A DNA stretch of 63,048 bases, counting the filler, from Candidatus Aminicenantales bacterium (lineage in GTDB: Bacteria > Acidobacteriota > Aminicenantia > Aminicenantales > Saccharicenantaceae), in the NCBI GenBank assembly GCA_049512315.1. It is 3 parts of 3 records of this genome, joined end to end, with 100 filler letters (N's around TTAATTAATTAA, not from the genome) between each part and the next. Parts side by side here need not be neighbours in the genome. Positions count along the whole stretch, not along the records: positions 13,200 to 41,719 come from JBEKXF010000034.1; 2 more parts are not named here. The stretch is one strand, 5' to 3'. Below the pieces are notes generated by a model. The model ran no database searches. It saw only the letters and a list, made by a program, of their open reading frames with translations, and was not told the DNA's origin. Shown in pieces: positions 13,100 through 26,369 of the stretch. Each line of letters starts with the position of its first letter. Within the stretch, counting starts at the first letter, position 1. The position numbers and the translations under genes are program-made.

Positions 13100-13199
13100 N
13101 NNNNNNNNNNNNNNNNNNNNNNNNNNNNNNNNNNNNNNNNNNNTTAATTAATTAANNNNNNNNNNNNNNNNNNNNNNNNNNNNNNNNNNNNNNNNNNNN
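13100..13199. other. Artificial contig linker (N-run/TTAATTAATTAA/N-run)
   Basis: Six-frame stop sequence embedded in Ns. Confidence 0.97.
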
Positions 13200-13319
13200 C
13201 TTATTTCCCGGCAGGGCTGGATCAGCGTGCCCTGGCTAAGGATGGACCCACGCTGGCGCCCGCTACAGGGGAACTCGAGCTTCGAGACGCTGCTGGCTAA
13301 GTACGAGTTGAAGAAATAG
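13200..13319 (+). CDS. 3' end of a gene, probably a TPR-type Ser/Thr kinase (truncated by contig start)
   Basis: Reads ISRQGWISVPWLRMDPRWRPLQGNSSFETLLAKYELKK*, resembling the LR.DP.W.PL....F..LL tail of kinase/TPR proteins. Confidence 0.6.
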   Translation, partial: LISRQGWISVPWLRMDPRWRPLQGNSSFETLLAKYELKK

Positions 13320-13337
13320 CATGGGGGCCGTCAGGAT

Positions 13338-13383
13338 ACTCCGGATCCAAAGGTCGGAGGTTCGAATCCTCTCAGGCACGCCA
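13338..13383 (+). tRNA. 3' fragment of tRNA-Arg(CCG), att-like and not a functional tRNA
   Basis: ACTCCGGA-TCCAA-AGGTC-GGAGG-TTCGAAT-CCTCT-CAGGCAC-G-CCA; similarity begins at the anticodon loop and the 5' half is absent. Confidence 0.85.
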
Positions 13384-13386
13384 CGT

Positions 13387-13416
13387 TTGACTTCCCGCCC
13401 ATCCCTCTGTTAATCT
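13387..13416 (+). promoter_or_regulatory. Sigma70 promoter of kinase gene 1
   Basis: TTGACT-18 bp-TAATCT with extended -10 TG; identical copy at 21191-21220. Confidence 0.7.
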
Positions 13417-13444
13417 GAGGCCAAGCTGGAAAAGGGGAGTTCGC

Positions 13445-16400
13445 TTGGCCAACAAGTGCCCGACCTGCCATTCTGACAATCCTGATACCCTGAAATTCTG
13501 CGGGGAGTGCGGCACCCAGCTTCCTCCGCCCCAAGGTCATCCTCCGGTCGTGACCGAAACTCTCCAGACACCCGTCCGCGAACTGACGACAGGCTCCACA
13601 TTCGCCGGCCGCTACCAGGTCATTGAGGAACTCGGCCACGGCGGCATGGGCCGGGTCTACAAGGTCCAGGACACGGACATCAAAGAGAAAGTCGCCCTCA
13701 AGCTGCTGCGTCCCGAGATCACCCTGGATAAAGAAGCGGTCGAGCGGTTCTCGAACGAGCTTAAGCTCGCCCGGAAGATCAGCCACAGGAACGTCTGCCG
13801 GATGTTCGACCTAGGCAGGGCCGAGGGCACGACTTTCATCACCATGGAGTTCGTGCCGGGAGAGGACCTGAAGAGCTTCCTCCATAGGGCAAAACAGCTC
13901 AGCATAGGAACCGCGGTATCCATTGCCAGGCAAGTATGCGAGGGGTTGGAGGAGGCGCACAGGCTGGGGATTGTTCACCGGGACCTGAAGCCCGGCAACA
14001 TCATGATCGACAAGGACGGGGATGCCAAGATCATGGACTTCGGGATCGCCCGGTCGCTCTCGGGGAGAGGCATCACGGGCGCCGGGGTGCTGATCGGGAC
14101 GCCCGAGTACATGAGCCCAGAGCAGGTCGATGGGAAAGAGGTCGACCAGAGGTCTGATCTCTATTCGCTAGGGGTCATTCTCTATGAGATGGTCACGGGG
14201 CGGATTCCGTTTTCTGGCGATACTCCGCTCAGCGTTGCCCATAAGCAGAGGTATGAAGCGCCCGAGGACCCGAAGAAGCTCAACGCCCACGTATCCGATG
14301 ACCTTGCCGGGGTCATCCTCAAATGTCTGGCTAAGGACAGAGACAAGAGGTTTCAGAGTGCGGCCGAGCTCGGGGCGGAGCTCGGACGGATAGAACAGGG
14401 CCTCCCCACAACGGATCGAATCGTCTCTAAGAAAAAAGCCCTGACATCGAAGGAATTCACAGTCAAATTCACGCCGAAGAAGCTTCTTCTCCCTGCCGCT
14501 GCTCTCATAGTCATTGTCGTCCTCGCAATCCTCCTCTGGCACCCTCCCTCTCATAACAAGGGTCAACTCGTTTTATCCGGGAAACCTTCTCTCGCCGTCC
14601 TCCCCTTTGTAAACTACTCAGGCGATGCCAGCCTCGAGAACTGGCGCGATGGTTTTCCGATGCTCCTCACCACCGGCCTCTCCGCATCAAAATACCTCAA
14701 GGTGTTGCGGCAGGACGAAGTGAACGGTGTGCTCAAGAAACTGAACCTCACCGAAGGGAAAGCCCTGACTTCCGATAACATCAAGAAGATCGCCCAGGAA
14801 GCCGAGGTGACGAGCCTTCTTGAGGCGAGTTTCGTCAAGGCCGGCCCGAATCTCATCATCACAGCCGTTCTGGTCAATGGCCAAACCGGCGAGACGCAAG
14901 CCACGCTCTCGATGAAACCGCAGACTATAGAGAATATCTTGGGAGGGGGGCTGGATGGCCTCGTCAAGGAGATCAAGCAAGGCCTGAACATCACTCAGGA
15001 GCAGCTGGCCTCGGACATCGACGTGGAGATCGGGAACGTGATGACCAGGAACCCCGAAGCTCTGAAATACTATGTCGAGGGCGAAAGGCTTCATCTGGCT
15101 ACTAGACAGGCCGAGGCAATCGAGCCTTTAAAGAAGGCCGTCGAGCTCGACCCCGATTTTGCCATGGCTCACAGGCTGCTCGGAGTCCTCTATGGGAACC
15201 TGGGACAATCTGCCAAGAGCAAGGAGAGCTACGAGAAGGCCTTCCGGCTCAAAGACCGGATGCCGCCACGGGAATACTACATACTCCAGGGCGATTATTA
15301 CAAGCAGTCCGAGGAGACCTATCCCAAGGCGATCGAGATGTATAAGAAAGTCCTGGACATCTACCCGGACGACTATCTCGGGAATCACCTGCTCGCTTGG
15401 GCATATCACTGGTCAGGCGAATTGAATCTGGCCATAGAGCAATACTCTAAGATATTGAAGAGCAGGCCGAGGGATCTGATGATCTACACCAATGTCGCTG
15501 ACGAGTATGCAGAGCTAGGGGAATATGAGAAAGCGACGCAGACCATGAAGGAATTTGTTGCCAATAACCCGGGAAACGATTTAGGCCATGCCTGGCTCGG
15601 TTCATGCTACATAATGCAGAGAAGATTTGACCTGGCAACGCAGGAAGTGGATCAAGCGATAACTATTCGTCCAGATAAAACGATATGGTCAGGGTGGAAA
15701 GGAGATATTTCATATTGCAAAGATGATCTTGAGGAGGCCGTCGGATTCTATCGGACCTGGCTGGATAACACAAAAAGTGATAGAGAAAAAACGAGGGCCG
15801 TGTGGAGACTTAATTGCATAGACATCCTGACGGGAAAACCCGAAGAGGCCCTGACTCGGTTCAAATCCTATCAGGAGCTGTTTGAAAAGATAGATCCGCT
15901 TACTTTTCATTACGATAGAGGTCATGTTTACATGGCAAGTCAGATGGCTGAACTAGCGCTCGAAGAATTTAAGAAAGCAGACGCCCTTGTCCCGGAAAGC
16001 GGAGCCCGCAACAAGAGAGAGAGCTATTTTTGGGAAGCCGTCGCCCAATTGGAAAAAGGGGACTTTCCTGAAGTTGAAAAGCTTTGTGGGGAGATTGATC
16101 GCCTTCTTCCCAGGTTCTTGAGGAATAAGGAAGAGAACACTCCCTACCTTCTGGGAAGGTTGACGCTGGCCAGAAAGAACTTGCCTGATGCTCTGAAGCT
16201 CCTCGACGAAACCCTGGCTAATTGCCCAAGAGACTCCATTGACGGATCGGGTAATAATGCACTTTATCTTGACAGCCTAGCTTCAGCCTGCCTCGAGATG
16301 GGAGACGTCGACGATGCACTCAAGAACTATGAAAAGATCACCCTCTTGACTACCCTCCGGTTTGCTTGGGGAGATCTCTACGCTAAGAGTTTCTATAGCC

Positions 16401-16540
16401 TGGGCAAGATCTACGAACAGAAAGGATTAAAGGGCAAGGCAGCCGAAAACTTCGAAAAATTCATCAGCCTCTGGAAAGACTGCGAGCCCCGGTTCCGGCC
16501 GCTCGTCGACGACGCCAGGAAACGGCTGGCCGGTCTTTAG
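13445..16540 (+). CDS. Zinc-ribbon Hanks-type Ser/Thr kinase with TM helix, TolB-N-like domain and TPR array
   Basis: CPTC...FCGEC ribbon; LGHGGMG, VALK, HRDLKPGN, DFG, GTPEYMSPEQ; hydrophobic TM; SLAVLPF; TPR repeats; TTG start after AAGGGGAG. Confidence 0.93.
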   Translation: MANKCPTCHSDNPDTLKFCGECGTQLPPPQGHPPVVTETLQTPVRELTTGSTFAGRYQVIEELGHGGMGRVYKVQDTDIKEKVALKLLRPEITLDKEAVERFSNELKLARKISHRNVCRMFDLGRAEGTTFITMEFVPGEDLKSFLHRAKQLSIGTAVSIARQVCEGLEEAHRLGIVHRDLKPGNIMIDKDGDAKIMDFGIARSLSGRGITGAGVLIGTPEYMSPEQVDGKEVDQRSDLYSLGVILYEMVTGRIPFSGDTPLSVAHKQRYEAPEDPKKLNAHVSDDLAGVILKCLAKDRDKRFQSAAELGAELGRIEQGLPTTDRIVSKKKALTSKEFTVKFTPKKLLLPAAALIVIVVLAILLWHPPSHNKGQLVLSGKPSLAVLPFVNYSGDASLENWRDGFPMLLTTGLSASKYLKVLRQDEVNGVLKKLNLTEGKALTSDNIKKIAQEAEVTSLLEASFVKAGPNLIITAVLVNGQTGETQATLSMKPQTIENILGGGLDGLVKEIKQGLNITQEQLASDIDVEIGNVMTRNPEALKYYVEGERLHLATRQAEAIEPLKKAVELDPDFAMAHRLLGVLYGNLGQSAKSKESYEKAFRLKDRMPPREYYILQGDYYKQSEETYPKAIEMYKKVLDIYPDDYLGNHLLAWAYHWSGELNLAIEQYSKILKSRPRDLMIYTNVADEYAELGEYEKATQTMKEFVANNPGNDLGHAWLGSCYIMQRRFDLATQEVDQAITIRPDKTIWSGWKGDISYCKDDLEEAVGFYRTWLDNTKSDREKTRAVWRLNCIDILTGKPEEALTRFKSYQELFEKIDPLTFHYDRGHVYMASQMAELALEEFKKADALVPESGARNKRESYFWEAVAQLEKGDFPEVEKLCGEIDRLLPRFLRNKEENTPYLLGRLTLARKNLPDALKLLDETLANCPRDSIDGSGNNALYLDSLASACLEMGDVDDALKNYEKITLLTTLRFAWGDLYAKSFYSLGKIYEQKGLKGKAAENFEKFISLWKDCEPRFRPLVDDARKRLAGL

Positions 16541-17100
16541 ATAAGTGCCGTTCTCCTCATATGCTTTTTTTACTAGCGCAGATTAGAGAGGGGGTAACGT
16601 CCTACATAAATACTCATTGGGGGGAGATGGGTATGTCTTTGTCTTGGAGCTATGTGGGCGTAGGAATATCAAGAGAAAGAAACATCAGTAACTCATATCC
16701 TTGGTTCTTGTTATCTTTTTGTTATCCCATTCCCGTCTTCGTACCTTGGGCATAGTGGGGGATAGTGCCTGAGGGCTTATCGCCTTGGGGATCCGCCTGA
16801 TGGCGATCGAGCTTCCCTGGTATTGCGGACCAGGAGAGCTTGAAGATCGCACTTCACGGGTGGCACATTGAGCGGGGGGGAAGGTCATGATGCTGATCGA
16901 CGATAACGGAAAGGTCTGCGCCAGCCCCACGGAACTCTCAAGCTCCTGTTCAATGGAATCTATTACGGCGGCGCCGAGACCTTCGATTTGAGGTAGAATT
17001 ATGTTAGAAACGCGAAGCTGCGGCGGATATCTATCCGGAGGTAACGCCTGGCTCTCCTCGAAGGATAGATATCCTCCGGGGTTCGCGGCGGGGGAGTGAC

Positions 17101-17967
17101 TTGAAGGCCGTTGCCGTTTCCGATTTGCATGGACTGGAAACCAGGTTCGTGCTCATTGGGAGGCTTCTCGATGAGGGCGTTGATACTCTTTTCATCGTAG
17201 GGGACATCGCGGCATCGGCAAATCCCGAAATTCAACAAGCCGGTGTCCGGAGAAGCTTCAGCAAGCTCCTGAAAGGCCGAAGGGGAGTCCGCATCTTCGC
17301 CATTCCGGGAAATGACGACTGGGCCATCGTGGAGACGGCTCTCCGGGAATTTTCTGAGGTCACGGTTCCCACGGATCACGCCTATGCTCTAGCCGCCGGC
17401 ATTTCGATCGTCGGGTATCCCTTCGTGCCGATCACGCCGTTCCTCATGAAAGATTTTGAAAAATGGGACAAGGAAGACGAGCCTGTCCTTCCGGATGATC
17501 CGGGGGCGATCGAAGCGGCCCTGCTAGCGAATCGGTTGAATGTCCTGGGGCTGAGGTCCAGCGGCGCGGACCTTTTGGATTATGCCTTCGATCCCGGGGA
17601 CCGGAGAGATAACATCAGCCGGGACCTTGAGAGAATCTCCCGCTTCTCTGACCCTCGGGAGACCGTTTATCTATTCCATTGCCCTCCGCACGGGTTCATG
17701 GACGGCGGGATTTCTATCGACTCCCCGATTCATATCGGAAGCAAGGCGATCCGGGCGTTTATCGAAAAAAGCCAGCCGCGGGTGACCGTGCATGGCCACA
17801 GTCACGATTCTGTCGACCAGGCGGGAGGGACCTTCCAATTTTCTCTAGGATTTTCGAAAGGGCTAGCCGTCGGCCCTGGAAATGATCCGAACATCCTGAA
17901 TTACCTTCTTCTAGACCTCGAAAACGAAGTCTATACACGGCGGCAAATGGCAGATCATAGCCGCTGA
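17101..17967 (+). CDS. Calcineurin-like metallophosphoesterase (Icc-related)
   Basis: SDLHG, VGDI, PGNDD, FHCPP, HGHSH motifs. Confidence 0.88.
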   Translation: MKAVAVSDLHGLETRFVLIGRLLDEGVDTLFIVGDIAASANPEIQQAGVRRSFSKLLKGRRGVRIFAIPGNDDWAIVETALREFSEVTVPTDHAYALAAGISIVGYPFVPITPFLMKDFEKWDKEDEPVLPDDPGAIEAALLANRLNVLGLRSSGADLLDYAFDPGDRRDNISRDLERISRFSDPRETVYLFHCPPHGFMDGGISIDSPIHIGSKAIRAFIEKSQPRVTVHGHSHDSVDQAGGTFQFSLGFSKGLAVGPGNDPNILNYLLLDLENEVYTRRQMADHSR

Positions 17968-18070
17968 AGGTCTAGTGCCGCCGTCCGTGACTCGAACGCA
18001 CTTGCCGGTGTAGGTCTCTCTGGTGAGATTTTATCGAGCATTGAGAGGGTCATGTTGCGCCTAGCTACGT

Positions 18071-18099
18071 TTGACTTCCCTCCCTGACGGCGTTATCCT
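18071..18099 (+). promoter_or_regulatory. Sigma70 promoter of kinase gene 2, related to those of kinases 1 and 3
   Basis: ACGTTTGACTTCCC shared with 13383-13396; TTGACT-17 bp-TATCCT. Confidence 0.65.
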
Positions 18100-18126
18100 T
18101 AGGCCAGCAAAGAAAAGGGGGCCAGC

Positions 18127-20994
18127 GTGGCCATCAAGTGTCCCAAGTGCCATTCTGACAACACCGATACGGCCCGGTTCTGTAGCAACTGTGCGACTTC
18201 GCTGGGTGCCCCCCGCGATCATGGACCGTCCCTCACGAAAACTCTGCAATCGCCCGCATATGTTGTAGCCCCCGGGACTGTTATCGCCGGCCATTATGAA
18301 GTCCTAGAAAAGCTCGGCCAGGGTGGGATGGGCGAGGTTTATCAGACTCTGGACAAGAATCTTGGCCGACAGGTGGCCATCAAGATCCTGCCGGAGGAGT
18401 TTTCGACGGACCCTGAGAGACTGGCGAGGTTCGAGCGGGAAGCCAAGCTCCTGGCGACGCTGAATCATCCCAATATCGCCGCCGTCTATGGTTTCGAAGA
18501 AGCAAAGGGGCTGCGGTTTCTGGTTTTGGAGCTGGTCGAAGGGGAGACGCTCCAAACGCATCTGGGCCGAGGCGTCCTGCCCATGGATGAGGCGCTGGAG
18601 ACTTGCCGGCAGGTCGCCGAGGGACTCGAAGCCGCCCATGAGAGGGGAGTCGTCCATCGGGATCTGAAGCCTGGGAATATCATGATCACCCCCGAGGGCA
18701 AGGTCAAGATCCTGGACTTCGGGTTGGCCAAAGCTTATACGGGTGAGTCCACGGGCATCGACATCGCTAATTCTCCGACGATCACGGCTCAGATGACCGA
18801 GCCGGGGGTCATCCTGGGGACCGCGGCATACATGAGCCCCGAGCAGGCCCGCGGGCGGTCCGTGGACAAGCGGGCCGATATTTGGGCCTTCGGTTGCATC
18901 CTCTACGAGTGCCTGACCGGGAAGAGGGCATTTCAGGGAGAAACAGTGTCCGATACCCTGGCCCATATCCTCAAGGGTGAACCGGATTGGAGATCGCTTC
19001 CAGCCGATACGCCTGCCAACGTGCGGGCTGTCCTGCGCCGGTGCCTTGAGAAGGATCCCAGGGAACGCTTTCACGACATCGCCGATGCCCGTATTGAAAT
19101 AAGAGAATCCGCGACCTTCCCTTTCGAAGCAATAAGCGTTTCCCGCCGGCCCTCACTTCTGTGGCTGGCTGCTTGTACCGCTGTTGCGCTTCTCGCGGGA
19201 ATCCTCATCGGGCCAGCGCTTATGAGGTATTTTCGGCCCGCCCCTTCCTCTTCGGTTGTCGCATCAACAATCAAGGTCGAGCCGAAACACTGGCTGGCCG
19301 GCATGCCCGAGGTCGAGGATCTGGGGCACCCGACCCGCACGGCTATAGCTATTTCCAGCGATGCCAGGTTCGTTGTCTATAGTGCAACAGAGGAGAATCC
19401 CGGCCCCCAGACGATGCCTCGGTTATACCTGCGAAGAATGGACCAATCGGAAGCTAAGCCCATCACCGGGACAAATGGTGGCATCAATCCCTTCTTCTCG
19501 CCTGACAACAGTTGGGTGGGATTCTGGGCGGACGGCAAGTTGAAGAAAGTTCCTATTGAAGGTGGTGTCCCGGCTACTTTGTGTGATGTTTCATTGCTCT
19601 TTGGCGCGAATTGGGGTCGTGATAACAGCATCGTGTTTTCAGACGGATCTTCCGCCGGGCTTTCGAGGGTTTCGGCTGAGGGCGGGAAGCCCGAGACCTT
19701 GACCAAGCCTGACCCGAAACGGGAGGAGGCAAGCCACCGCCTGCCATCCTGGCTTCCCGATAGGAAGGCCGTGGTGTTCACCGTGATGAGACAAGCCGGG
19801 GACCAACAACCCTGGCTTGCTCTGCTCAGACTGGATAAACGGGAGTGGCATGTCCTGTTACAGGACGGTGCAGATGCTAGGTACGTTCCCTCAGGACACC
19901 TGGTTTTCCTGCGGCAGGGGACGCTCATGGCCGTCCGATTTGATCTGGCCAGGTTGGAGGTCATCGGACAACCCTTCCCCCTCGTGGAAAACGTCGTGCA
20001 AGCCTTCAGCATAGATGGCAACAAAAACACTGGAGCCGGTCAAACCGGGATCTCAGATACCGGATCGCTCATATATGCACCAGGTGGCATTAGTCCGGAC
20101 CCGAGGAATTCGCTCGTGTGGGTGGATCAGAGAGGAGTAGAACAGCCGGTCACGGCCTTGCAGGCAGCTTTTTTCGCTCCGCGTCTCTCTCCTGACGGCC
20201 AAAGAATTGCCTATACCACTTATAGGCGAGAGAGGCCAGTCTGGGTTTATGACTTAGGCACGGGCACGAACTATAAGCTGACTGGCGAGGGAAGGTCGAG
20301 TTTTCCGATCTGGACTCCCGACGGCAAACGGCTTCTTTTTCCATGGCGAAAATCCCTGGAGTCGAACCTGTTCTGGCAGCCCTACGATGGAAGCTCCCCG
20401 ATGGAGCGCCTTGCCACAAATGAATCGGGCAAATCCCCGGGATCCTGGTCTGCAGATGGGAAAACGCTAGCTTTTGTGGAATTTCACCTAGATACCGGGA
20501 CGGATATTGGTATGTTGGACGTCGGCTCGGGCCGCGTGACGCCGTTCCTGAATTCACAATTCAATGAGATGCACCCCGAATTCTCGCCCGACGGCCGCTG
20601 GATAGCCTATGCATCTGATGAGTCAAAGCGCTACGAGGTCTACGTCCGGGCCTTCCCCGGCCCAGGAATGAAACAGCAGATATCGACCGAAGGGGGCGAC
20701 GAGCCGCTGTGGGCAAGAAACGGCAAACAGCTTTTCTATCGATGGGAGAATCAGGTGTGGGCCGTGAATGTCCGGACAGACGGCGGGTTCGCGACCGGCA
20801 AGCCGCGGCTGCTTTTTGAGAAACCCGGATACCTGGGCGGCGCGCCCATACGTGGCTATGACCTGTCCCTCGACTCGCAGCGATTTCTCATGGTCAAGCT
20901 CGACCAAAGAAAGCCTACGCCTGTCACCGAAATGATCCTTGTCCAGAACTGGTTCGAGGAACTCAAGCGGCTTGTCCCGGCTAGCAAGAAATAG
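18127..20994 (+). CDS. Zinc-ribbon Hanks-type Ser/Thr kinase with TM helix and PD40/TolB-like beta-propeller
   Basis: CPKC...FCSNC; LGQGGMG, HRDLKPGN, DFG, GTAAYMSPEQ; TM; repeated (F/W)SPDG motifs. Confidence 0.93.
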   Translation: MAIKCPKCHSDNTDTARFCSNCATSLGAPRDHGPSLTKTLQSPAYVVAPGTVIAGHYEVLEKLGQGGMGEVYQTLDKNLGRQVAIKILPEEFSTDPERLARFEREAKLLATLNHPNIAAVYGFEEAKGLRFLVLELVEGETLQTHLGRGVLPMDEALETCRQVAEGLEAAHERGVVHRDLKPGNIMITPEGKVKILDFGLAKAYTGESTGIDIANSPTITAQMTEPGVILGTAAYMSPEQARGRSVDKRADIWAFGCILYECLTGKRAFQGETVSDTLAHILKGEPDWRSLPADTPANVRAVLRRCLEKDPRERFHDIADARIEIRESATFPFEAISVSRRPSLLWLAACTAVALLAGILIGPALMRYFRPAPSSSVVASTIKVEPKHWLAGMPEVEDLGHPTRTAIAISSDARFVVYSATEENPGPQTMPRLYLRRMDQSEAKPITGTNGGINPFFSPDNSWVGFWADGKLKKVPIEGGVPATLCDVSLLFGANWGRDNSIVFSDGSSAGLSRVSAEGGKPETLTKPDPKREEASHRLPSWLPDRKAVVFTVMRQAGDQQPWLALLRLDKREWHVLLQDGADARYVPSGHLVFLRQGTLMAVRFDLARLEVIGQPFPLVENVVQAFSIDGNKNTGAGQTGISDTGSLIYAPGGISPDPRNSLVWVDQRGVEQPVTALQAAFFAPRLSPDGQRIAYTTYRRERPVWVYDLGTGTNYKLTGEGRSSFPIWTPDGKRLLFPWRKSLESNLFWQPYDGSSPMERLATNESGKSPGSWSADGKTLAFVEFHLDTGTDIGMLDVGSGRVTPFLNSQFNEMHPEFSPDGRWIAYASDESKRYEVYVRAFPGPGMKQQISTEGGDEPLWARNGKQLFYRWENQVWAVNVRTDGGFATGKPRLLFEKPGYLGGAPIRGYDLSLDSQRFLMVKLDQRKPTPVTEMILVQNWFEELKRLVPASKK

Positions 20995-20999
20995 TTCAG

Positions 21000-21081
21000 G
21001 CAGACCTCTCCCCGTGTCACAGCCATGTCACAAAAAATGCGTAAACGCGCTTAATTCTGACTAAAGGTGCGTAAAGGAAAA
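21000..21081 (+). repeat. Att-arm-like repeat, copy A
   Basis: GCAGACCTCTCC..TGTCACA-N4-TGTCACA..TGCGTAAACGCGCTTAATTCTGACTAA.GGTGCGTAAAGGAAAA; near-identical copy at 24311-24393. Confidence 0.9.
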
Positions 21082-21130
21082 CAAGACGTTTCCCCCTGAA
21101 AATGGGGTTTCCCCCATATGCACAGGAGGG

Positions 21131-21187
21131 TAGAGCGTTGGACTCCGGATCCAAAGGTCGGAGGTTCGAATCACCTCAGGTGCACCA
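21131..21187 (+). tRNA. 3' fragment of tRNA-Arg(CCG), att-like and degenerate
   Basis: TAGAGCG-TTGGA-CTCCGGA-TCCAA-AGGTC-GGAGG-TTCGAAT-CACCT-CAGGTGC-A-CCA; perfect anticodon stem, mismatched T-stem, no 5' acceptor strand. Confidence 0.85.
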
Positions 21188-21247
21188 GGTTTGACTTCCC
21201 GCCCATCCCTCTGTTAATCTGAGGCAAATTAGAGGAGGGAAACTCGC

Positions 21248-24088
21248 TTGGTCATCACGTGCCCGACCTGCCACTCTGAGAACCCTGATACCTCCCAGTT
21301 TTGCGGGAGCTGTGCGGCACCGCTTGGTGGGGGAGAGCAAAGTCCTTCCTTACTAACGAAAACTCTCCAGACGCCTGTCCAAGGGTTGACCAAGGGAAGC
21401 CTTATCGCCGGAAAATACAGGATCATCGATGAGACTGGCCGTGGCGGGATGGGAATCGTCTACAAGGCCGAGGACATCAAGCTCCAGCGCGCCGTCGCCC
21501 TGAAGTTTCTGCCAGAAGAGCTGGCCCACGACCACCAGGCCGTCGAGCGTTTCCAGCGCGAAGCACGGGCCGCCTCCGCACTGAATCATCCCCATATCTG
21601 CATCATCTACGACATCGATGAACATGAAGGAAAGCACTTCATCGCGCTCGAGTTTCTGGAGGGGAAGACGCTACGGGAATATCTGCTAGGCAAGCGGCTG
21701 GCCGTTGACCAAATCGTCGACCTTGCGATACAGGTCGCCGGGGGGCTGGAGGCCGCCCACGCCAAAGGGATCATCCATCGGGATATCAAGCCGGACAATA
21801 TTTTCATGACGGATTCGGGGCAGGCTAAGATTCTGGATTTCGGACTGGCCAAGCTTCTGCATGAGTGGAGGCCGAAAGCGGAGGAAAAGGTCGCCCTTGC
21901 CATGCCGACGATGACAGCGGAGGAATTCCTAACCAGCCCCGGTACCGCGGTCGGCACGGTGGCCTACATGTCGCCCGAACAGGCGCGGGGAGAAGAACTG
22001 GACGCCCGCACCGACCTCTTCTCCTTCGGCGTCGTCCTTTATGAGATGGCCACCGGCCAGCAAGCCTTCAGGGGCAACACGTCGGCGGTCATCTTCGACG
22101 CCATCCTCCATAAGGCGCCGACCTCCCCCGTCCGGCTGAACCCGGACCTTCCTCCGGAACTGGAACGGATCATCAATAAGGCCTTGGAGAAAGAACGCAA
22201 GCTGCGCTACCAGAGCGCCGGCGACCAACGGGTCGATCTCGAACGGCTGAAACGGGATTCCACGTCGGCCAGCATAGCTGCCATCGCTGAGGAACGAAAA
22301 GCATCGGCGCTTGACCTGGTGCCCGCGAGGCCGGGAAGACGCAAGTGGGTTTGGCGGGGAGTTGCAGCCGTTGCTGTCATCGCGCTCGCGGCAGTCGCGG
22401 CCGTGTTCCTGACTGGCCCAAAACATGCACGGGAGGGTGGGCCTCCCCGCGTGGCCAACGTGGTCAAGGTGACCACGGCCATGGGCGCCAAGGACTATCC
22501 GAGCTGGTCGCCCGACGGCCGGACTCTCGCTTATCAGTCGGACCAGGCCGGCAACTGGGACATCTGGGTCACCCAGGCGGGGAGCGGCCAGGCGGTCAAC
22601 CGGACGGCCGACAGCACGGCCGATGATCTCATGCCGGTCTGGTCGCCCGACGGCCAGTGGATCGCGTTCTTTTCCGATAGAGAGGGCGGGGGGTATTATG
22701 TCATGCCGGGGATGGGAGGGGTAGCGCGCAAGATCACCTCGTGGGATCCCGGCTCCTATTATCCCGATCCGGCCCAATGGTCTCCCGACAGCTCGCAGTT
22801 GGTGTTCGCGCGAGGCCAGCATGTCGGGCCGTGGCTCGAGTTCCTGACTTTGACCAGCCGGGCATCGAAAAGGTTGACGCTCCCGATTAGACCGACCAAT
22901 AATACGATCCTCGATATCAGCTGGTCCCCGGACGGCCGCTGGCTCGCCTACGGGCGGGCCCTCAGCCCCATCGCGGCGACCTCCGAGCTCTGGCTAACCT
23001 GCCTCTCTGATGGGCAGAGCTTCCAGCTCACGGACGGCACCAAGTGGGATCGCAGCCCGAGTTGGTCGCCGGACTCCCTCGGACTCTATTTCGTCTCGGA
23101 TCGCGGCGGGACGCCGGATCTGTGGAGGCTCACTCTCAGCGAGGACGGCCGGACCGGGACTGCGCCGCAGCAGGTCACCGCCGGGATCGAGATGACCCAT
23201 GCCGTGTTATCCGCGAACGGCAGAAAGCTGGTTTACATAAAGGGGCGGATCGTTCGGAACGCGTTTCGCGCTCCGCTACTGTCGAACCACCCGGTGACTT
23301 GGGCGGATACATCCCAACTGACCTATGACGAGGCACAGATCGAGTCCATTGATGTTTATCAGGACGGCCGAATCCTCGTCAGCTCGGACCGGTCGGGGAA
23401 CTGGGACGTGTATTCATTGTCCTCGGGCGGGGGGGAGCTCCAACAGCTCACCACCGACCCGGCCATCGATGCCGGCCCCAGGTGGAAGCCCGACGGAAGC
23501 GAGATCGTGTTCTATTCCTCCCGGACGGGGCATCGAGAGACCTGGATCATGGGTGCCGACGGTGGCCAAGCCAGGCAATTAACTCGCGGGGAAGCGGAAA
23601 GCTATTACCCGGCATGGTCGCCCGACGGGACGGAGATCGTCAACGAGGAGAACGGTCTTTCGGTCATCCCCGCTCAGGGGGGTCAGGGGCGACGGTTGAC
23701 GACCGAACGCAGGGACCTGCACCCGGACTGGTCGCCTGACGGCCGGTGGGTGGCGTTCGACTCGGGTCGCGACGGCATCCAGCGCCTGTGGCGCATCCCC
23801 GCATCCGGCGGGTCGCCGGAGCGGCTGACGGAAGGGCCGGGAACCCATCCCCGATGGTCGGCCGATGGGAAGCGCATCTATTTCATCGGGATAGGGAACC
23901 GATTGAACAATATCTGGGCCTTGTCTCTCGGCAACCGGGAGGAACGGCCCGTGACGGCTTTGACGGGCCGGAGAGGTGCGCTCGGGACCATCGGCCTGGC
24001 GGTCGACGATCGGTCCATCTATTTCACCTGGGAGGAAGCGCGCGGCGATATCTGGGTCGCGGATCTCGTTCCATCAGCGATGAAATGA
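21248..24088 (+). CDS. Zinc-ribbon Hanks-type Ser/Thr kinase with TM helix and PD40/TolB-like beta-propellers
   Basis: CPTC...FCGSC; GRGGMG, HRDIKPDN, DFG, GTVAYMSPEQ; TM; many PxWSPDG repeats. Confidence 0.93.
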   Translation: MVITCPTCHSENPDTSQFCGSCAAPLGGGEQSPSLLTKTLQTPVQGLTKGSLIAGKYRIIDETGRGGMGIVYKAEDIKLQRAVALKFLPEELAHDHQAVERFQREARAASALNHPHICIIYDIDEHEGKHFIALEFLEGKTLREYLLGKRLAVDQIVDLAIQVAGGLEAAHAKGIIHRDIKPDNIFMTDSGQAKILDFGLAKLLHEWRPKAEEKVALAMPTMTAEEFLTSPGTAVGTVAYMSPEQARGEELDARTDLFSFGVVLYEMATGQQAFRGNTSAVIFDAILHKAPTSPVRLNPDLPPELERIINKALEKERKLRYQSAGDQRVDLERLKRDSTSASIAAIAEERKASALDLVPARPGRRKWVWRGVAAVAVIALAAVAAVFLTGPKHAREGGPPRVANVVKVTTAMGAKDYPSWSPDGRTLAYQSDQAGNWDIWVTQAGSGQAVNRTADSTADDLMPVWSPDGQWIAFFSDREGGGYYVMPGMGGVARKITSWDPGSYYPDPAQWSPDSSQLVFARGQHVGPWLEFLTLTSRASKRLTLPIRPTNNTILDISWSPDGRWLAYGRALSPIAATSELWLTCLSDGQSFQLTDGTKWDRSPSWSPDSLGLYFVSDRGGTPDLWRLTLSEDGRTGTAPQQVTAGIEMTHAVLSANGRKLVYIKGRIVRNAFRAPLLSNHPVTWADTSQLTYDEAQIESIDVYQDGRILVSSDRSGNWDVYSLSSGGGELQQLTTDPAIDAGPRWKPDGSEIVFYSSRTGHRETWIMGADGGQARQLTRGEAESYYPAWSPDGTEIVNEENGLSVIPAQGGQGRRLTTERRDLHPDWSPDGRWVAFDSGRDGIQRLWRIPASGGSPERLTEGPGTHPRWSADGKRIYFIGIGNRLNNIWALSLGNREERPVTALTGRRGALGTIGLAVDDRSIYFTWEEARGDIWVADLVPSAMK

Positions 24089-24310
24089 ATCCATAAGGTT
24101 CCAAGCTACTGGCAAGAACGACAGCGCGGCCTTATAACCACGAAAGCCAGTCCGCCCCCCATTCACCACAGCCAGTTCCAGCACTCCCATCGTGGCGCCA
24201 TCCACGGGCCGCGCGTCTCAGCCGACCATAAGGCTCGGGAATGATGTCACCCATTACAAGATGACGATATCGCCGGCCGCCACCCTGGCCAAGAGGAGTG
24301 GGCTAGTGGA

Positions 24311-24393
24311 GCAGACCTCTCCATTTTGTCACAGATTTGTCACAAATTGTGCGTAAACGCGCTTAATTCTGACTAATGGTGCGTAAAGGAAAA
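24311..24393 (+). repeat. Att-arm-like repeat, copy B
   Basis: Homologous to 21000-21081; lies downstream of kinase 3 as copy A lies downstream of kinase 2. Confidence 0.9.
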
Positions 24394-24480
24394 TCGCAAA
24401 TCATATGGGGAAAACGTGGTTTTCCCCTGGAGGATGCCAGTTCTCGGATCGCATTCCTAATCCATGCCGGCCTTGCCAGC

Positions 24481-24526
24481 ACTGCCGAAGGCGGTGTGTC
24501 GCCTGTTCGAGTCAGGCCAGGGGCAC
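24481..24526 (+). tRNA. Degenerate tRNA 3' remnant (identity uncertain)
   Basis: ACTGC-CGAAG-GCGGT stem, GTGTC, perfect T-arm GCCTG-TTCGAGT-CAGGC, acceptor strand CAGGGGC-A. Confidence 0.65.
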
Positions 24527-24566
24527 TTGATACTTTCCCTAATAGCGACCGCAAGGATAAGCGGCC

Positions 24567-24770
24567 TTATCGCTTTTTTAATGAAGGGTCCGACAAGGGC
24601 AACCGCCAGATGCCGCCCTGCATAGTGCCCGCAAAAAGATAATCCCCGCTCACCGTGAGCGCATAGACCTGAACATATTTCAAGCCTGAATTGACCATGA
24701 CCCAGCTCTTCTTTTGATTCGAGGACATGAAAACCCCCGCGCCGTCGGTGCCGGCAAAGACTGGCGGGTT
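24567..24770 (-). pseudogene. C-terminal fragment of a BNR/VPS10-like beta-propeller protein
   Basis: VFAGTDGAGVFMSSN..SW...NSGL...VYAL...LFAGTMQGGIWRLPL pattern with no N-terminus. Confidence 0.6.
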
Positions 24771-24873
24771 CTCGCGGCTGACCTCGCCGCATTCATGAAG
24801 CAGGGGAGACACAGGAAAAAGAGCCGATGAACATTTGGCTGAGCCGGGCGCGGCAAGCGACGGGGAGGATATC

Positions 24874-25962
24874 ATGAAGGGTGTTTATCAGCGTGGCGAT
24901 CGGTGGTGGATTCGCTATCGATTCAACGGCAAGCTCATCCGTCAGCCCATCGGAGACCGGGTCCTGGCCGAGCGGACGATGGAGGAGATCCGTCGGCGCA
25001 TCGAATCAGGCCGGCATGAGGTCAAACTCAAGGACGAGCGGCGGACGTTCGCCGAGATGGTCGACGAATATCTCGCTGAGAAGGCGGACAAACGCTCGCT
25101 GGCGCGGGACAGGGCGAGTTTCAAGCACCTCGCGCCGTTCTTCGGGACCTCCTTCCTTCACAAGATCGGGAGGGGCGACGTCAAGGTCTACCAGACGAAA
25201 CGGAAGAAGGAGGTTTCGGGCGCGACCTCGAACCGAGAATTGGCGCTTCTCCGGCACCTCTTCAACATCGCCATCGAGAAGGGCTACACGCGGGACAACC
25301 CCGCCCGCGGCATCAAAATGTTCAAGGAGCGGAAATGCGAGCGGCGGACTTTTGTCTTCTCCGAAGACGAGCTCCAATCGCTTATGAACGCTACGGCATC
25401 CCACCTCCGGCCGATCCTGGCCGTGGCCGTCGGCACAGGGCTCCGGAAGGGGGACATCCTTGGCCTCCGCTGGAACCAGATCGACTTCGAGCACAATGTC
25501 ATCACGCTATTCATGCAGAAGACCGAGGACAGTATCGAGGTCCCCATGCTGCCGATGGTCCGCGAGGTTCTGTGGCGGATGAAGGGGACTGCCAGCGAGA
25601 CGCACTTCGTCTTCACCTATCACAAGGGTAAGAGAATCGGCGACATCAAGACGGCCGTCCGCGGGGCCTTGCGGCGCTCCGGGCTGGCTGCGAAAGGCTA
25701 CCGCTTCCATGACATCAGGAGGACGTTCGCGACGATGCTCCATATCCGCGGTGTCGATTTGACGAAGATCCAACGGCTCCTTGGCCATCAAAGCATTATC
25801 ACGACAGAAAGATACTTGGGAGTCAAATACGAGGAGACAGCTCAGGCGATCTCGGTACTCGACATTCCCTCGTTAAAAGCGCTTGCGGCACCACAAGTAG
25901 TCACATCGAGTGCAAAGCAGATCGCCACTCCAATAGAAACCGACGTATCAACAGTCAGTTGA
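24874..25962 (+). CDS. Phage-type tyrosine recombinase/integrase
   Basis: N-terminal arm-binding-like GVYQRGDRWWIRY; catalytic TGLRKGDI, RFHDIRRTFAT, LLGH, TTERY all intact; GGGGAGG RBS. Confidence 0.93.
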   Translation: MKGVYQRGDRWWIRYRFNGKLIRQPIGDRVLAERTMEEIRRRIESGRHEVKLKDERRTFAEMVDEYLAEKADKRSLARDRASFKHLAPFFGTSFLHKIGRGDVKVYQTKRKKEVSGATSNRELALLRHLFNIAIEKGYTRDNPARGIKMFKERKCERRTFVFSEDELQSLMNATASHLRPILAVAVGTGLRKGDILGLRWNQIDFEHNVITLFMQKTEDSIEVPMLPMVREVLWRMKGTASETHFVFTYHKGKRIGDIKTAVRGALRRSGLAAKGYRFHDIRRTFATMLHIRGVDLTKIQRLLGHQSIITTERYLGVKYEETAQAISVLDIPSLKALAAPQVVTSSAKQIATPIETDVSTVS

Positions 25963-26369
25963 AAAGCCAGACCGTTAGACTACGGAAGCGAAAGACCGGT
26001 TTCTCTTAACCTCCATAAAACAAAGTAGTAGTCAATCTTATCAGCAAGTTATAATTGATTTCTGGCGATGTGGAAGTATGCCAAAATATATAGAAATGTG
26101 CCTACTTTGGTCACAATTTGGGCACAGCTCGCCGGCAAAAAAACTATTCCTCCCAATGGGCCAAGATCTGTGGAGCAGATCATCCAAGGTCGGGTTCCCT
26201 TTGCTCGAACACCTTATCCGAGGCTGAACGTCTGTGTGGAATGGCTGCCGGCCGATGTTGCCTGATCATGTTTTCCCCGGTACCGGAATGGATTCATGAC
26301 TTATCTCCCATCTAAGCCCTACTCTAACAGGTTTCCCGGTTCCGGACAAAGTGAGCAAGCCCGCTCATC

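What the first reader, a model, noticed from the sequence alone, without database searches (positions are those of the whole stretch)
13200..26130. Candidate tRNA-Arg-anchored integrative cassette array of receptor Ser/Thr kinases
Seen in sequence: three complete, co-oriented zinc-ribbon kinase genes and a probable fourth (truncated) lie in tandem. Junctions carry tRNA-Arg 3' fragments (13338-13383, 21131-21187, remnant at 24454) directly followed by a shared promoter. Kinases 2 and 3 are each followed by the same ~82-bp arm-like repeat. An intact tyrosine integrase closes the array. No phage or conjugation genes are present. Established knowledge: tRNA-targeting tyrosine integrases duplicate the tRNA 3' end, often cross over in the anticodon loop, and tandem integration leaves attP-like junctions. 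Inference: each kinase is a one-gene, self-promoted, non-autonomous cassette mobilised by the integrase. That would be an integron-like collection system for signal receptors that uses tRNA att sites instead of attC.
Basis: partly seen in the sequence, partly recalled or inferred. Interest (0 to 1): 0.9.

Follow-up and report, generated by a model that had tools for sequence, protein, structure and literature searches.

The report
Receptor kinases between tRNA-fragment scars
Three receptor kinase genes and an integrase lie in a strain-specific stretch of a peat bacterium's genome, stitched together at leftover pieces of arginine tRNA genes; this looks like repeated insertion of small mobile elements, not a proven new gene-collecting machine.

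Summary
The sequence features are real, with corrections. The window is three MAG contigs joined by N linkers, and the array starts at a contig edge. Three zinc-ribbon/Pkinase/one-TM receptor kinases and an intact tyrosine integrase are present. 13338-13383 and 21131-21187 are tRNA-Arg(CCG) 3' fragments. The 24454 remnant derives from tRNA-Arg(CCT), not CCG. A fourth junction was missed: the integrase stop codon lies inside a decayed tRNA-Arg(CCG) 5' half.

The pattern is genome-wide. The genome holds 63 partial tRNA copies, 26 of them matching one tRNA-Arg. A conserved arm module with GTCACA and TGCGTAAA repeats occurs 11 times. The kinase leader precedes 20 genes, and 8 of these abut tRNA-Arg remnants. 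Two same-genus genomes have an empty site beside the DPP-IV gene, with no tRNA there.

Best reading (0.6): a strain-specific additive island built from tRNA-Arg-targeting integrative elements and integrase-less derivatives. This resembles tandem tRNA islands and tycheposon-built islands.

The integron-like cassette idea is only partly supported (0.2). K1, the phosphoesterase and K2 form one unit. K3's two ends carry different tRNA cores. The integrase is not IntI-like, and no excision was seen.

Novelty: new variant of a known kind.

The parts
13100..13199 (.). Contig linker (N44-TTAATTAATTAA-N44). The array's contig, G000:C34, starts at 13200.
13201..13323 (+). 3' end (40 codons) of a gene cut by the contig edge. 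Its homologue in G006 is a TPR-repeat protein. This is the possible 'fourth kinase', but that identity is unproven.
13338..13383 (+). Junction 1: tRNA-Arg(CCG) 3' fragment, positions 32-77, 46 of 46 bases identical to G000:C11:94677-94753. It starts at the anticodon loop.
13386..13444 (+). Conserved leader (TTTGACTTCCC..GTTAATCTGAGGCC..GGGGA..TTG start). It is promoter-like. The same leader precedes 20 genes in the genome.
13445..16540 (+). K1: zinc-ribbon, Pkinase, one TM segment, TPR receptor Ser/Thr kinase (1031 aa)
17101..17967 (+). Metallophosphoesterase (288 aa), lying between K1 and K2 with no tRNA fragment on either side
18069..18126 (+). K2 leader variant (TTGACT-17-TATCCT). No tRNA remnant lies upstream.
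18127..20994 (+). K2: zinc-ribbon, Pkinase, one TM segment, PD40 propeller kinase (955 aa)
20997..21130 (+). Arm module 1: GCAGACCTCTCC, TGTCACA-N5-TGTCACAAA, TGCGTAAAC..CTTAATTCTGACTAAAGGTGCGTAAAGGAAAA, then a G/C hairpin spacer. It starts 3 nt after the K2 stop codon.
21131..21187 (+). Junction 2: tRNA-Arg(CCG) fragment. Positions 21-62 are 42 of 42 identical; the 3' end is then divergent (ACCTCAGGTGCACCA). This is a hybrid core.
21190..21247 (+). K3 leader. With junction 2, it forms an 87-nt stretch (21142-21228) that is 92% identical to 13338-13424.
21248..24088 (+). K3: zinc-ribbon, Pkinase, one TM segment, PD40 propeller kinase (946 aa)
24311..24452 (+). Arm module 2 (same arm repeats, CCT-type spacer). 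With junction 3 it is 92% identical to G003:C27:4582-4810.
24453..24526 (+). Junction 3: tRNA-Arg(CCT)-type fragment. It has positions 33-46, a 28-nt insertion (24467-24494), then positions 45-76 at 32 of 32 bases. A terminator-like hairpin lies at 24559-24575.
24874..25962 (+). Intact tyrosine integrase (362 aa from the ATG). It is not an integron-type integrase.
25952..25986 (+). Junction 4 (new): decayed tRNA-Arg(CCG) 5' half, about positions 5-39, overlapping the integrase stop codon. It breaks at the anticodon loop (..CGGA|AGCGAAAG), the same point as in G006.
25987..26127 (+). P'-type arm, A+T-rich, ending in GGTCACAATTTGGGCACAG (26109-26127). It is 85% identical to G006:C8:78792-78949 and to G000:C24:28081-28237.
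26217..28757 (-). Conserved flank. The DPP-IV/S9 peptidase gene (26370-28643) and its 3' intergenic segment are 78-86% identical in six same-genus genomes. Synteny with G002 and G003 starts at 26217.

Best explanation
Window 13200 to about 26216 is the sequenced part of a strain-specific additive genomic island. It was built by repeated site-specific recombination of small integrative elements whose attachment sites derive from tRNA-Arg genes.

Shown:
- Four tRNA-derived junctions lie in one orientation.
- Two junctions carry a conserved arm module with paired GTCACA and TGCGTAAA repeats, the layout of integrase arm-binding sites.
- The fragments begin or end at the anticodon loop.
- The integrase gene is fused to a tRNA-Arg(CCG) 5' half followed by a conserved arm.
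- Relatives have an empty site.

Inferred:
- Complete elements of this family read leader/cargo, integrase, arm, tRNA core.
- The K1-phosphoesterase-K2 block and the K3 block read leader, kinase, arm, core. They are integrase-less derivatives, either decayed or dependent on an integrase supplied in trans, that were joined head to tail.
- The integrase with its 5'-half junction is the right end of another element of the same target specificity.
- The receptor kinases are cargo. They belong to a family of about 39 paralogues whose conserved leader sits immediately after the tRNA 3' end on the element side of the attachment site. Each integration therefore places a self-expressed kinase gene behind a tRNA or tRNA fragment.
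- Recombination among paralogues then shuffles kinase and sensor halves.
For: Genome-wide pattern:
- Of 112 non-overlapping tRNA-like matches, 63 are partial, and 54 of those are 3' type.
- 26 partial copies match one tRNA-Arg(CCG) and 11 match Arg(CCT). The genome has only 13 PF00589 matches.
- Fragments cluster. There are 47 neighbour intervals of 8 kb or less, 40 of them co-oriented. Of 57 ORFs inside co-oriented intervals, 39 run the same way. Of 10 one-gene fragment-to-fragment intervals, 8 are co-oriented.

Arm module:
- It has 11 copies in G000.
- Among 12 aligned copies from G000, G003 and G012 (two genera), the stretch TAATTCTGACTAA.GGTGCGTAAAGGAAAA is almost entirely invariant.

Integrase family:
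- In 15 of 19 homologue loci, a co-oriented tRNA gene or fragment lies within about 150 nt of the integrase stop.
- The arm after the window's integrase is preceded by a tRNA-Arg 5' half in G006, G021 and G033.

Kinase leader:
- 8 of 20 loci bearing the leader have a significant tRNA-Arg 3' remnant directly upstream (p<0.01 against 3000 random 60-mers).
- Homology among paralogues mostly starts at 13381-13387, the tRNA/leader boundary.

Comparison with relatives:
- G006:C14 shares 13201-13383 (89%) and then diverges.
- G002 and G003 join DPP-IV directly to a block that lies at G000:C23:7189 onward, with no tRNA, kinase or integrase between them.
- The cargo of a similar array on C55 has no nucleotide match in 7 of 7 same-genus genomes.

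Published models (passages read):
- Additive tRNA-proximal islands with scattered partial tRNAs (10.1101/2020.12.28.424599).
- Tandem tRNA islands (PMC4383910).
Against: - No recombination event was observed. Public runs are available only as short unitigs that break at the repeats.
- K3's two cores derive from different tRNAs, and arrays elsewhere mix Arg, Lys and Thr fragments. Serial integration into one tRNA gene does not predict this.
- The empty site has no tRNA, so how the island reached this locus is unexplained. A 118-nt intergenic segment is present at both borders, about 70% alike.
- 12 of 20 leader loci, K2 among them, show no significant tRNA remnant.
- The window's integrase has no close relative: the best are 55% and 44% identical, with matches in 30 of 121 genomes of the order.
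- The tRNA half beside the integrase is decayed, so the enzyme may be inactive at this site.
- The contig order across 21071-21535 and 24476-24500 rests on the MAG assembler; no listed unitig bridges these stretches.
Confidence: 0.6

Rival explanations
1. A dedicated integron-like collection system exists. Each unit (leader, one gene, arm, tRNA core) is a live, non-autonomous cassette. An integrase acting in trans excises it as a circle and re-inserts it at any site that carries the tRNA-Arg anticodon loop. Arrays of receptor kinases are thus assembled and reshuffled.
For: - Junction 2 is attP-like: arm, core, leader.
- The kinase abuts the arm in four places. These are K2, the K2-like gene on C26 (arm 6 nt after its stop), K3, and a kinase in G012:C1.
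- Arms (87-94% identical) are better conserved than the adjoining kinase genes (67-83%).
- Many fragments are 100% identical to the tRNA, which suggests recent events.
- One-gene co-oriented units occur on C26, C55 and C28, and in G021.
- Both 5'-type and 3'-type fragments meet at positions 32-39, so one integrase could in principle use all of them.
Against: - K1, the phosphoesterase and K2 share one unit.
- K3 is flanked by CCG-type and CCT-type cores.
- Most fragments (52 of 63) have no arm module within 220 nt.
- No integrase sits at a fixed primary site. Neither the intact tRNA-Arg(CCG) on C11 nor its counterpart in G018 has one upstream.
- The integrase is not IntI-like (62.8 bits against a cut-off of 265).
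- There is no attC-like fold.
- The orientation bias is weak (8 of 10; 39 of 57).
- No circles or precise deletions were seen.
Confidence: 0.2
2. This is passive paralogue duplication. An ancestral kinase gene lay just downstream of a tRNA-Arg gene or scar. Segmental duplication and gene conversion then spread kinase copies together with pieces of that scar. The fragments at the kinases are inert passengers, and the neighbouring integrase is a coincidence.
For: - The genome has 39 kinase paralogue matches.
- The kinases are mosaic, with a breakpoint at the TM segment (window about 14469). The N-terminal half is 87-88% identical to copies on C43, and the C-terminal half 83% to C28:35355-37413.
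- Remnants upstream of the leader decay to different degrees.
- Homology among copies often starts at the leader, not inside the tRNA fragment.
Against: - The fragments at K1 and K3 are 46 of 46 and 42 of 42 identical to the living tRNA, while the proteins are about 42% identical.
- K3's fragment is a hybrid, and its left part continues into an arm module that is shared with loci lacking any kinase.
- The fragments' 5' ends fall at known integrase crossover positions.
- The same kind of fragment delimits unrelated genes.
- The integrase itself is fused to a tRNA-Arg half.
Confidence: 0.12
3. This is an assembly artefact. The repeats (tRNA fragment plus leader, and the arm modules) caused the MAG assembler or binner to join segments that are not adjacent in any cell. 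The 'array' would then be chimeric.
For: - Unitigs from all four runs end at 21071 and 24476 and restart at 21535 and 24500.
- Depth in run X3 differs between the integrase piece (75.8) and the K1-K2 pieces (about 44).
- Many contigs of this MAG end in repeats.
Against: - Unitigs with 0 to 2 differences link K1, the phosphoesterase and K2 (14729-18399).
- They also link K2 to arm 1 (18645-21071), K3 to arm 2 (23166-24476), and junction 3 to the integrase and DPP-IV (24500-26882 and beyond). This holds in runs from different studies.
- Depths of the unique parts are otherwise even in X1, X2 and X4.
- The same junction types recur inside other contigs and in near-complete genomes of relatives.
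Confidence: 0.05

Closest known systems
Tandem genomic islands in tRNA genes made by tyrosine integrases (Islander signature; PMC4383910, passages read)
   Same: - A tyrosine integrase is present.
- Displaced tRNA fragments lie in one orientation and mark element ends.
- Fragment ends fall at the anticodon loop or the T-arm region.
- Tandem junctions look like attP.
   Different: - The units are much smaller: 3.3 and 7.8 kb here, and about 1 kb elsewhere in the genome. Islander discards candidates under 2 kb or without an integrase.
- Most units have no integrase.
- There are far more fragments per genome: 63 partial copies. Islander's maximum was 19 islands in any of 2168 genomes, and only 4 tandems of three or more.
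- Arrays mix fragments of different tRNAs.
- The locus is not at an intact tRNA.
Tycheposon-built additive islands of Prochlorococcus (Hackl et al., bioRxiv 10.1101/2020.12.28.424599; sections 3 and 4 part 1 read)
   Same: - These are islands at conserved loci that grow by integration of tRNA-targeting integrase elements.
- Partial tRNAs and degenerate elements are scattered through the island.
- Most island DNA is cargo left behind.
- Content is strain-specific.
   Different: - No replication module (primase, helicase) was found in 13200-26130.
- Whether the integrase belongs to that clade was not tested.
- The cargo is a paralogous receptor-kinase family whose own leader abuts the tRNA core.
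- A conserved arm module accompanies integrase-less units.
- The host is a peat bacterium, probably of the Acidobacteriota (weak inference).
CIMEs and site-specific accretion with ICEs/IMEs in streptococci (recalled; of PMC5704250 only the search listing was seen)
   Same: Elements bounded by att sites lack their own recombinase. They are joined in tandem with an integrase-bearing element, which could mobilise them in cis or in trans.
   Different: - No conjugation or mobilisation genes are present.
- The att cores of the K3 unit are heterologous.
- Mobility is untested.
Integrons (IntI, attI, attC cassettes)
   Same: Small, mostly one-gene, co-oriented units are separated by short recombination sites, with a tyrosine recombinase nearby.
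   Different: - The integrase fails the integron model.
- The sites derive from tRNAs and carry arm repeats. They are not folded attC hairpins.
- The units carry their own leader.
- There is no fixed integrase-attI-Pc platform.
pdif/Xer modules of Acinetobacter plasmids (recalled, no call)
   Same: Single-gene modules are bounded by short recombinase sites and occur in varied contexts.
   Different: Those modules use XerC/D sites in inverted pairs. Here the sites are direct tRNA-derived cores with lambda-type arms.

Membership tests
Integron | IntI-type integrase (NCBIfam TIGR02249, cut-off 265 bits) | tested here: not met
   62.8 bits. The XerC, XerA and XerD models score higher, but all are below their cut-offs.
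Integron | attC sites: imperfect inverted repeats that fold as single-stranded hairpins | tested here: not met
   20997-21190 folded as DNA gives -26.2 kcal/mol and z -0.96; 34 of 200 shuffles fold as well. The sites are tRNA fragments with direct arm repeats.
Integron | Integrase next to a primary attI site with a common promoter, and promoterless cassettes | tested here: not met
   Each kinase has its own conserved leader. The integrase lies at the far end, in the same direction as the genes.
tRNA-targeting tyrosine-integrase island | Tyrosine recombinase catalytic domain (PF00589) | tested here: met
   E 6.3e-32, 111.2 bits against a cut-off of 27.1, residues 175-333
tRNA-targeting tyrosine-integrase island | End fragments of a tRNA gene, co-oriented, marking the junctions | tested here: met
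   46 of 46, 42 of 42 and 32 of 32 identical stretches at junctions 1-3, and a 5' half at junction 4
tRNA-targeting tyrosine-integrase island | Intact cognate tRNA gene at one end of the island | tested here: inconclusive
   There is no tRNA in the window. tRNA-Arg(CCG) lies on C11, 1.4 kb from a contig end, next to IS110 ORFs. The empty site in G002 and G003 has no tRNA. The island's left end is off the contig.
Non-autonomous att-bounded element (CIME-like) | The same att core on both sides, with no recombinase inside | tested here: inconclusive
   The K1-phosphoesterase-K2 unit has CCG cores on both sides (13338 and 21131) and no integrase. The K3 unit has CCG on the left and CCT type on the right.
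Non-autonomous att-bounded element (CIME-like) | Excision or integration when an integrase is supplied | not testable with these tools
   Only Logan unitigs were available, and the joints seen are short-sided repeat artefacts.
Tycheposon | Integration module plus a replication module (primase, helicase or polymerase) | tested here: not met
   No such Pfam family was found among the ORFs of 13200-26130.
Tycheposon | Integrase inside the tycheposon clade | not tested
Hanks-type receptor Ser/Thr kinase | Pkinase domain, a single TM segment, and an extracytoplasmic repeat domain | tested here: met
   Pkinase E 1e-45 to 1e-58 with TPR or PD40 repeats. One hydrophobic 19-mer (Kyte-Doolittle above 1.6) lies at aa 342-385 in each protein.

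The most novel reading that the evidence does not exclude
An order of peat/sediment bacteria runs a cassette system based on tRNA-derived att sites. Integrase-less units (leader, one gene, arm module, tRNA core) are excised and re-inserted in trans at any site that carries a tRNA anticodon loop, including earlier scars and other tRNAs. This builds arrays of mixed tRNA fragments. It also drives the expansion and domain shuffling of a receptor Ser/Thr kinase family. Functionally it would be an integron analogue that uses tRNA-derived sites with lambda-type arms.
Probability: 0.2. Interest if true: 0.85.

Novelty: new variant of a known kind. Interest (0 to 1): 0.6.

Why it matters
If the reading holds, tRNA-targeting integrases do more here than park a few large islands. 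They pepper a 3.5-Mb genome with dozens of very small, often one-gene, insertions, and they are physically linked to the growth of a large receptor-kinase family.

This gives a concrete mechanism for paralogue expansion and sensor-domain diversification in uncultured soil and peat bacteria. It extends the 'additive island' model, described for marine cyanobacteria, to another phylum and to much smaller units.

The conserved arm module and the family of small integrases with different tRNA cores could also serve as a set of related site-specific recombination parts.

The integron-like version would be of wide interest, but it needs direct evidence of mobility.

Tried and rejected
1. A tRNA 3' remnant downstream of the integrase at 26130-26260 was suspected by eye. 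Its best local score against all the genome's tRNAs is 11. Random 131-mers have a median best score of 13 and a 95th percentile of 16. Rejected. The real junction is the 5' half at 25952-25986.
2. Circular junctions or excision in public data. Four runs labelled peat metagenome hold 54-94% of the sampled words. They are served only as short unitigs. The joints (for example 13384 to 21140, or 24539 back to 13339) have 20-46 letters on the shorter side and sit in repeats that recur elsewhere in the genome. No verdict is possible.
3. The search for related loci with the integrase in genome contigs found no relative. The genome search was used instead.
4. The search for related loci with the DPP-IV protein gave only distant named MAGs. 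The best segments were 68% to an Acidobacteriota MAG and 60% to a Candidatus Aminicenantes MAG. This is a weak hint for taxonomy and gave no help with synteny.
5. G007:C45 as a K3 orthologue in another context. It is the closest copy of K3 (77%). But the truncated kinase at G000:C55:1-273 is 95% identical to it. It is therefore better read as that gene's orthologue, and it was not used as evidence that K3 moved.
6. A sigma-70 scan supports only K2's leader. The promoter function of the K1 and K3 leaders stays inferred.
7. Rfam found no known RNA family in 13201-26400 apart from the sub-threshold tRNA hit and a chance sRNA hit.
9. Literature searches found no description of this arrangement in Aminicenantes or Acidobacteria. 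The terms covered tandem tRNA islands and tRNA fragments, Aminicenantes with integrase, tRNA and mobile elements, and integron-like with tRNA and cassettes. PMC5900883 was seen only in the listing. Supplements were not consulted.


Full report
**What the window is.** The 63-kb window is not one molecule. Runs of 44 N around TTAATTAATTAA lie at 13100-13199 and 41720-41819. Positions 13200-41719 are contig C34 (28,520 bp) of a 3.55-Mb, 77-contig genome bin, G000. The finding therefore starts 138 nt from a contig end. Nothing to the left of 13200 belongs with it.

**Genes.** Three co-oriented genes lie at 13445-16540 (K1), 18127-20994 (K2) and 21248-24088 (K3). Each encodes an N-terminal zinc-ribbon motif and a Pkinase domain (E 5.8e-58, 2.5e-56, 3.2e-45). 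K1 then has TPR repeats; K2 and K3 have PD40 propeller repeats. Each has a single hydrophobic segment at about aa 342-385. 'Receptor Ser/Thr kinase' is therefore a fair description. A metallophosphoesterase gene (17101-17967) lies between K1 and K2. An intact tyrosine integrase follows K3; its likely start is the ATG at 24874, and it ends at 25962. No phage or conjugation family was found. The piece at 13201-13323 is the last 40 codons of a gene cut by the contig end. Its 89% homologue in the same-genus genome G006 is a TPR protein, which is also cut by a contig end. A fourth kinase is possible but not shown.

**Junctions.**
- ARAGORN finds no tRNA gene in the window.
- The genome has an intact tRNA-Arg(CCG) at C11:94677-94753 and an intact tRNA-Arg(CCT) at C24:45426-45501.
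- Junction 1 (13338-13383) equals positions 32-77 of the CCG gene, 46 of 46 bases.
- Junction 2 (21131-21187) equals positions 21-62, 42 of 42 bases, and then has a divergent 3' end. It is a hybrid. Rfam's tRNA model gives 22.6 bits there, below its gathering score of 29.
- Junction 3 is not CCG-derived. 24453-24466 and 24495-24526 match positions 33-46 and 45-76 of tRNA-Arg(CCT), the latter at 32 of 32 bases. A 28-nt insertion separates the two parts.
The integrase stop codon lies inside a decayed tRNA-Arg(CCG) 5' half (25952-25986). This half breaks at the anticodon loop and is followed by an A+T-rich arm (25987-26127) ending in GGTCACAATTTGGGCACAG.
- In G006:C8 the same arm (85% over 158 nt) follows positions 1-39 of the tRNA at 100% identity. 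A sequence resembling the upstream region of the G000:C11 tRNA gene precedes it there.
- In G021 and G033, arm homologues are likewise preceded by tRNA-Arg 5' halves.

**Repeats.**
- 13338-13424 and 21142-21228 are 92% identical over 87 nt. K1 and K3 are only about 42% identical as proteins.
- This shared stretch is the tRNA fragment plus a leader that begins TTTGACTTCCC about 58 nt before the start codon.
- K2 has a variant leader and no tRNA remnant.
- K2 and K3 are each followed by an arm module (21000-21081 vs 24311-24393, 86.7% over 83 nt).
- Twelve copies of the module from G000, G003 and G012 were aligned. The alignment shows TGTCACA-N5-TGTCACAAA, two TGCGTAAA repeats, and a stretch (TAATTCTGACTAA.GGTGCGTAAAGGAAAA) that is almost entirely invariant. 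A spacer and the tRNA part follow.
- This is the layout of integrase arm-type binding sites. That function is inferred, not tested.
- As single-stranded DNA the module does not fold better than shuffles (z -0.96).

**The pattern is genome-wide.**
- Searching all 49 tRNA genes of G000 against the genome gave 112 non-overlapping matches. Of these, 63 are partial and 54 of those are 3' fragments.
- 26 partial matches come from the C11 tRNA-Arg(CCG) query and 11 from Arg(CCT). Smaller numbers come from Thr, Asp, His, Lys, Leu and Arg(TCT), and there are 5' fragments of tRNA-Sec.
- The genome has only 13 matches to the integrase domain.
- For scale, the Islander survey reports at most 19 islands in any of 2168 genomes and four tandems of three or more. 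It discards candidates under 2 kb or without an integrase (PMC4383910, passages).
- Fragments cluster. There are 47 neighbour intervals of 8 kb or less, including true tRNA clusters, and 40 are co-oriented. Of 57 ORFs inside co-oriented intervals, 39 run the same way. Of 10 one-gene fragment-to-fragment intervals, 8 are co-oriented.
- On C55 and C26, co-oriented fragments separate an ABC transporter, a methyltransferase, an amidohydrolase, DUF1579 proteins, an ORF with no Pfam match, and kinases.
- The phenomenon is therefore not specific to kinases.

**Link between kinases and tRNA-Arg.**
- The genome has 39 kinase-domain matches.
- Twenty loci carry the leader: 19 kinase genes and one amidohydrolase.
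- In 8 of these 20, the 60 nt upstream are significantly similar to the tRNA-Arg(CCG) 3' part (p<0.01 against 3000 random 60-mers). A few more are borderline, and K2 is not similar.
- Homology of K1's 5' region to paralogues and relatives mostly begins at 13381-13387, the tRNA/leader boundary.
- I infer that the leader and kinase form the element-side flank (P') of an attachment site whose core is the tRNA 3' part.
- The kinases are also mosaic. K1's kinase half is 87-88% identical to two copies on C43 and to G003:C7. Its TPR half is 83% identical to C28:35355-37413 and 82% to G004:C38. The break falls at the TM segment.

**The integrase family.**
- Homologues at E<=1e-40 occur in 30 of 121 genomes sampled from the order, G000 included. 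The best are 55% (G082, at a contig edge) and 44% (G001) identical.
- In 15 of 19 homologue loci, a co-oriented tRNA gene or fragment lies within about 150 nt after the integrase stop. Two loci have one in the opposite orientation, and two have none or too little sequence.
- Complete elements therefore read cargo, integrase, arm, tRNA core. GTCACA-type pairs are visible between integrase and tRNA in G006 and G034.
- K2 and K3 occupy the integrase's place. The arm begins 3 nt after K2's stop, 6 nt after the stop of a K2-like gene on C26, and 223 nt after K3's stop. A kinase in G012:C1 is also followed by the module.
- The integrase is not an integron integrase: TIGR02249 scores 62.8 bits against a cut-off of 265.

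**Comparison with relatives.**
- Among the listed matches from 30 relatives, none showed the array; 183 further matches were not listed.
- K1 and K2 have full-length 80-81% matches on two different contigs of G027, which belongs to a different family. Neither match has a fragment or leader nearby.
- G006:C14 shares 13201-13383 and diverges exactly after the tRNA fragment.
- The arm-plus-CCT module (24311-24539) recurs at 92% in G003:C27 with no kinase or integrase nearby.
- To the right, conserved synteny begins at 26217. In G002 and G003, DPP-IV and its 3' intergenic segment run directly into a block that lies at C23:7189 onward in G000. No tRNA, kinase or integrase lies between them.
- G006 has about 2.5 kb of other DNA at this spot.
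- A segment of about 118 nt of that intergenic region is present at both borders in G000 (C34:13018-13135 and C23:7189-7306, about 70% alike).
- The array is therefore part of a strain-specific insertion of at least 13 kb at a variable locus that is not a tRNA gene. How it entered is unexplained.

**Independent assemblies.** Four runs labelled peat metagenome hold 54-94% of the sampled words of 20500-25000. Their unitigs confirm four links with 0 to 2 differences:
- K1, the phosphoesterase and K2 (14729-18399);
- K2 and arm 1 (18645-21071);
- K3 and arm 2 (23166-24476);
- junction 3, the integrase and DPP-IV (24500-26882 and beyond).

The unitigs stop at the repeats. The listed joints are short-sided and uninformative. 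The order across 21071-21535 and 24476-24500 rests on the MAG assembly.

**Mechanism proposed (confidence about 0.6).** Small integrative elements target the anticodon-loop region of tRNA-Arg. They, and integrase-less derivatives that keep only leader, cargo, arm and core, have been joined head to tail and partly decayed.
- Unit 1 runs from 13384 to 21187 (K1, phosphoesterase, K2, arm, core).
- Unit 2 runs from 21188 to 24526 (K3, arm, CCT-type core).
- The integrase with its 5'-half junction is the right end of a further element.
- The 25987-26127 arm is the stump of the next element.

This matches the additive-island model described for Prochlorococcus, in which integrase elements at tRNAs leave cargo, degenerate elements and partial tRNAs behind (10.1101/2020.12.28.424599; sections 3 and 4 part 1 read). 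It differs in four ways: unit size, the absence of replication genes, the conserved arm module, and the kinase leader built into the attachment site.

Three observations are not explained. Cores of different tRNAs are mixed. A hybrid tRNA-Asp/Arg(CCT) fragment lies at C28:37879-37923. The locus is not a tRNA gene. These leave room for heterologous-site recombination, or for capture of scars as passengers.

**Verdict.**
- The interpretation overreaches on four points: one gene per cassette, anchoring at a tRNA-Arg, receptor-specific collection, and integron likeness.
- Mobility is unproven.

Noticed in passing
window 13100-13199 and 41720-41819: N44-TTAATTAATTAA-N44 linkers lie at these positions. 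The window is three MAG contigs laid end to end, so features must not be read across these points.
   Followed up: yes
G000:C28:37879-37923 (L011): A hybrid tRNA fragment lies here. A tRNA-Asp anticodon arm and variable region are joined at a shared GTCGC to the T arm and acceptor end of tRNA-Arg(CCT). This suggests recombination between att sites derived from different tRNAs.
   Followed up: partly
window 24467-24494; also G000:C27:3144, C28:1230, C28:10689, C28:12333, C28:32956; G003:C27; G009:C5: The tRNA-Arg(CCT)-type fragments carry the same 28-nt hairpin-like insertion in the variable region. This variant recurs in at least 6 copies in G000 and in relatives. Its origin (an element-borne tRNA variant?) is unknown.
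   Followed up: partly
window ~14469 (K1 aa ~342): The kinase genes are mosaics. The kinase half and the sensor half of K1 have different closest relatives (C43 and G003:C7 vs C28 and G004:C38). The breakpoint is at the transmembrane segment.
   Followed up: partly
window 13454-16536 and 18114-20978 vs G027:C15 and G027:C12: K1 and K2 have full-length 80-81% nucleotide matches in a genome of a different family. This is better than any full-length match in the same genus, which suggests horizontal transfer of whole kinase genes.
   Followed up: no
window 26217-26334 (C34:13018-13135) and G000:C23:7189-7306: A ~118-nt intergenic segment is single-copy between DPP-IV and the next gene in G002 and G003. 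In G000 it is present at both borders of the strain-specific region, about 70% alike. This may reflect Campbell-type or site-specific insertion at a non-tRNA site.
   Followed up: partly
G000:C55:11003-11125 and ends of C4, C12, C26, C36, C54, C62: A ~122-nt repeat with 98-99% identical copies sits at many contig ends. It is an unresolved repeat that fragments this assembly.
   Followed up: no
window 16541-17100: The K1-phosphoesterase intergenic region contains short repeats with copies on C12, C20, C26, C28, C36, C59, C66 and C67 (42-248 nt, 72-88%). Their nature is unknown.
   Followed up: no
G000:C11:94677-96171 (L016): The intact tRNA-Arg(CCG) is followed by a flank shared with the fragments on C66 and C14, then by IS110-family transposase ORFs, then the contig end. 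On C66 an integrase C-terminal fragment ends 4 nt after the tRNA fragment on the opposite strand.
   Followed up: partly
G000:C17:48439-49588, C17:4086, C26:27285, C1:257: An integrase lies directly upstream of tRNA-Sec, and three tRNA-Sec 5' fragments occur elsewhere. This is a second family of elements that displaces the tRNA 5' end.
   Followed up: no
window 32687-33124: An rve_3 integrase-core (transposase) fragment lies among metabolic genes on the same contig. The blocks to the right of DPP-IV (serine dehydratase, ornithine cyclodeaminase) lie elsewhere in G002 and G003, so the right flank is also rearranged.
   Followed up: partly
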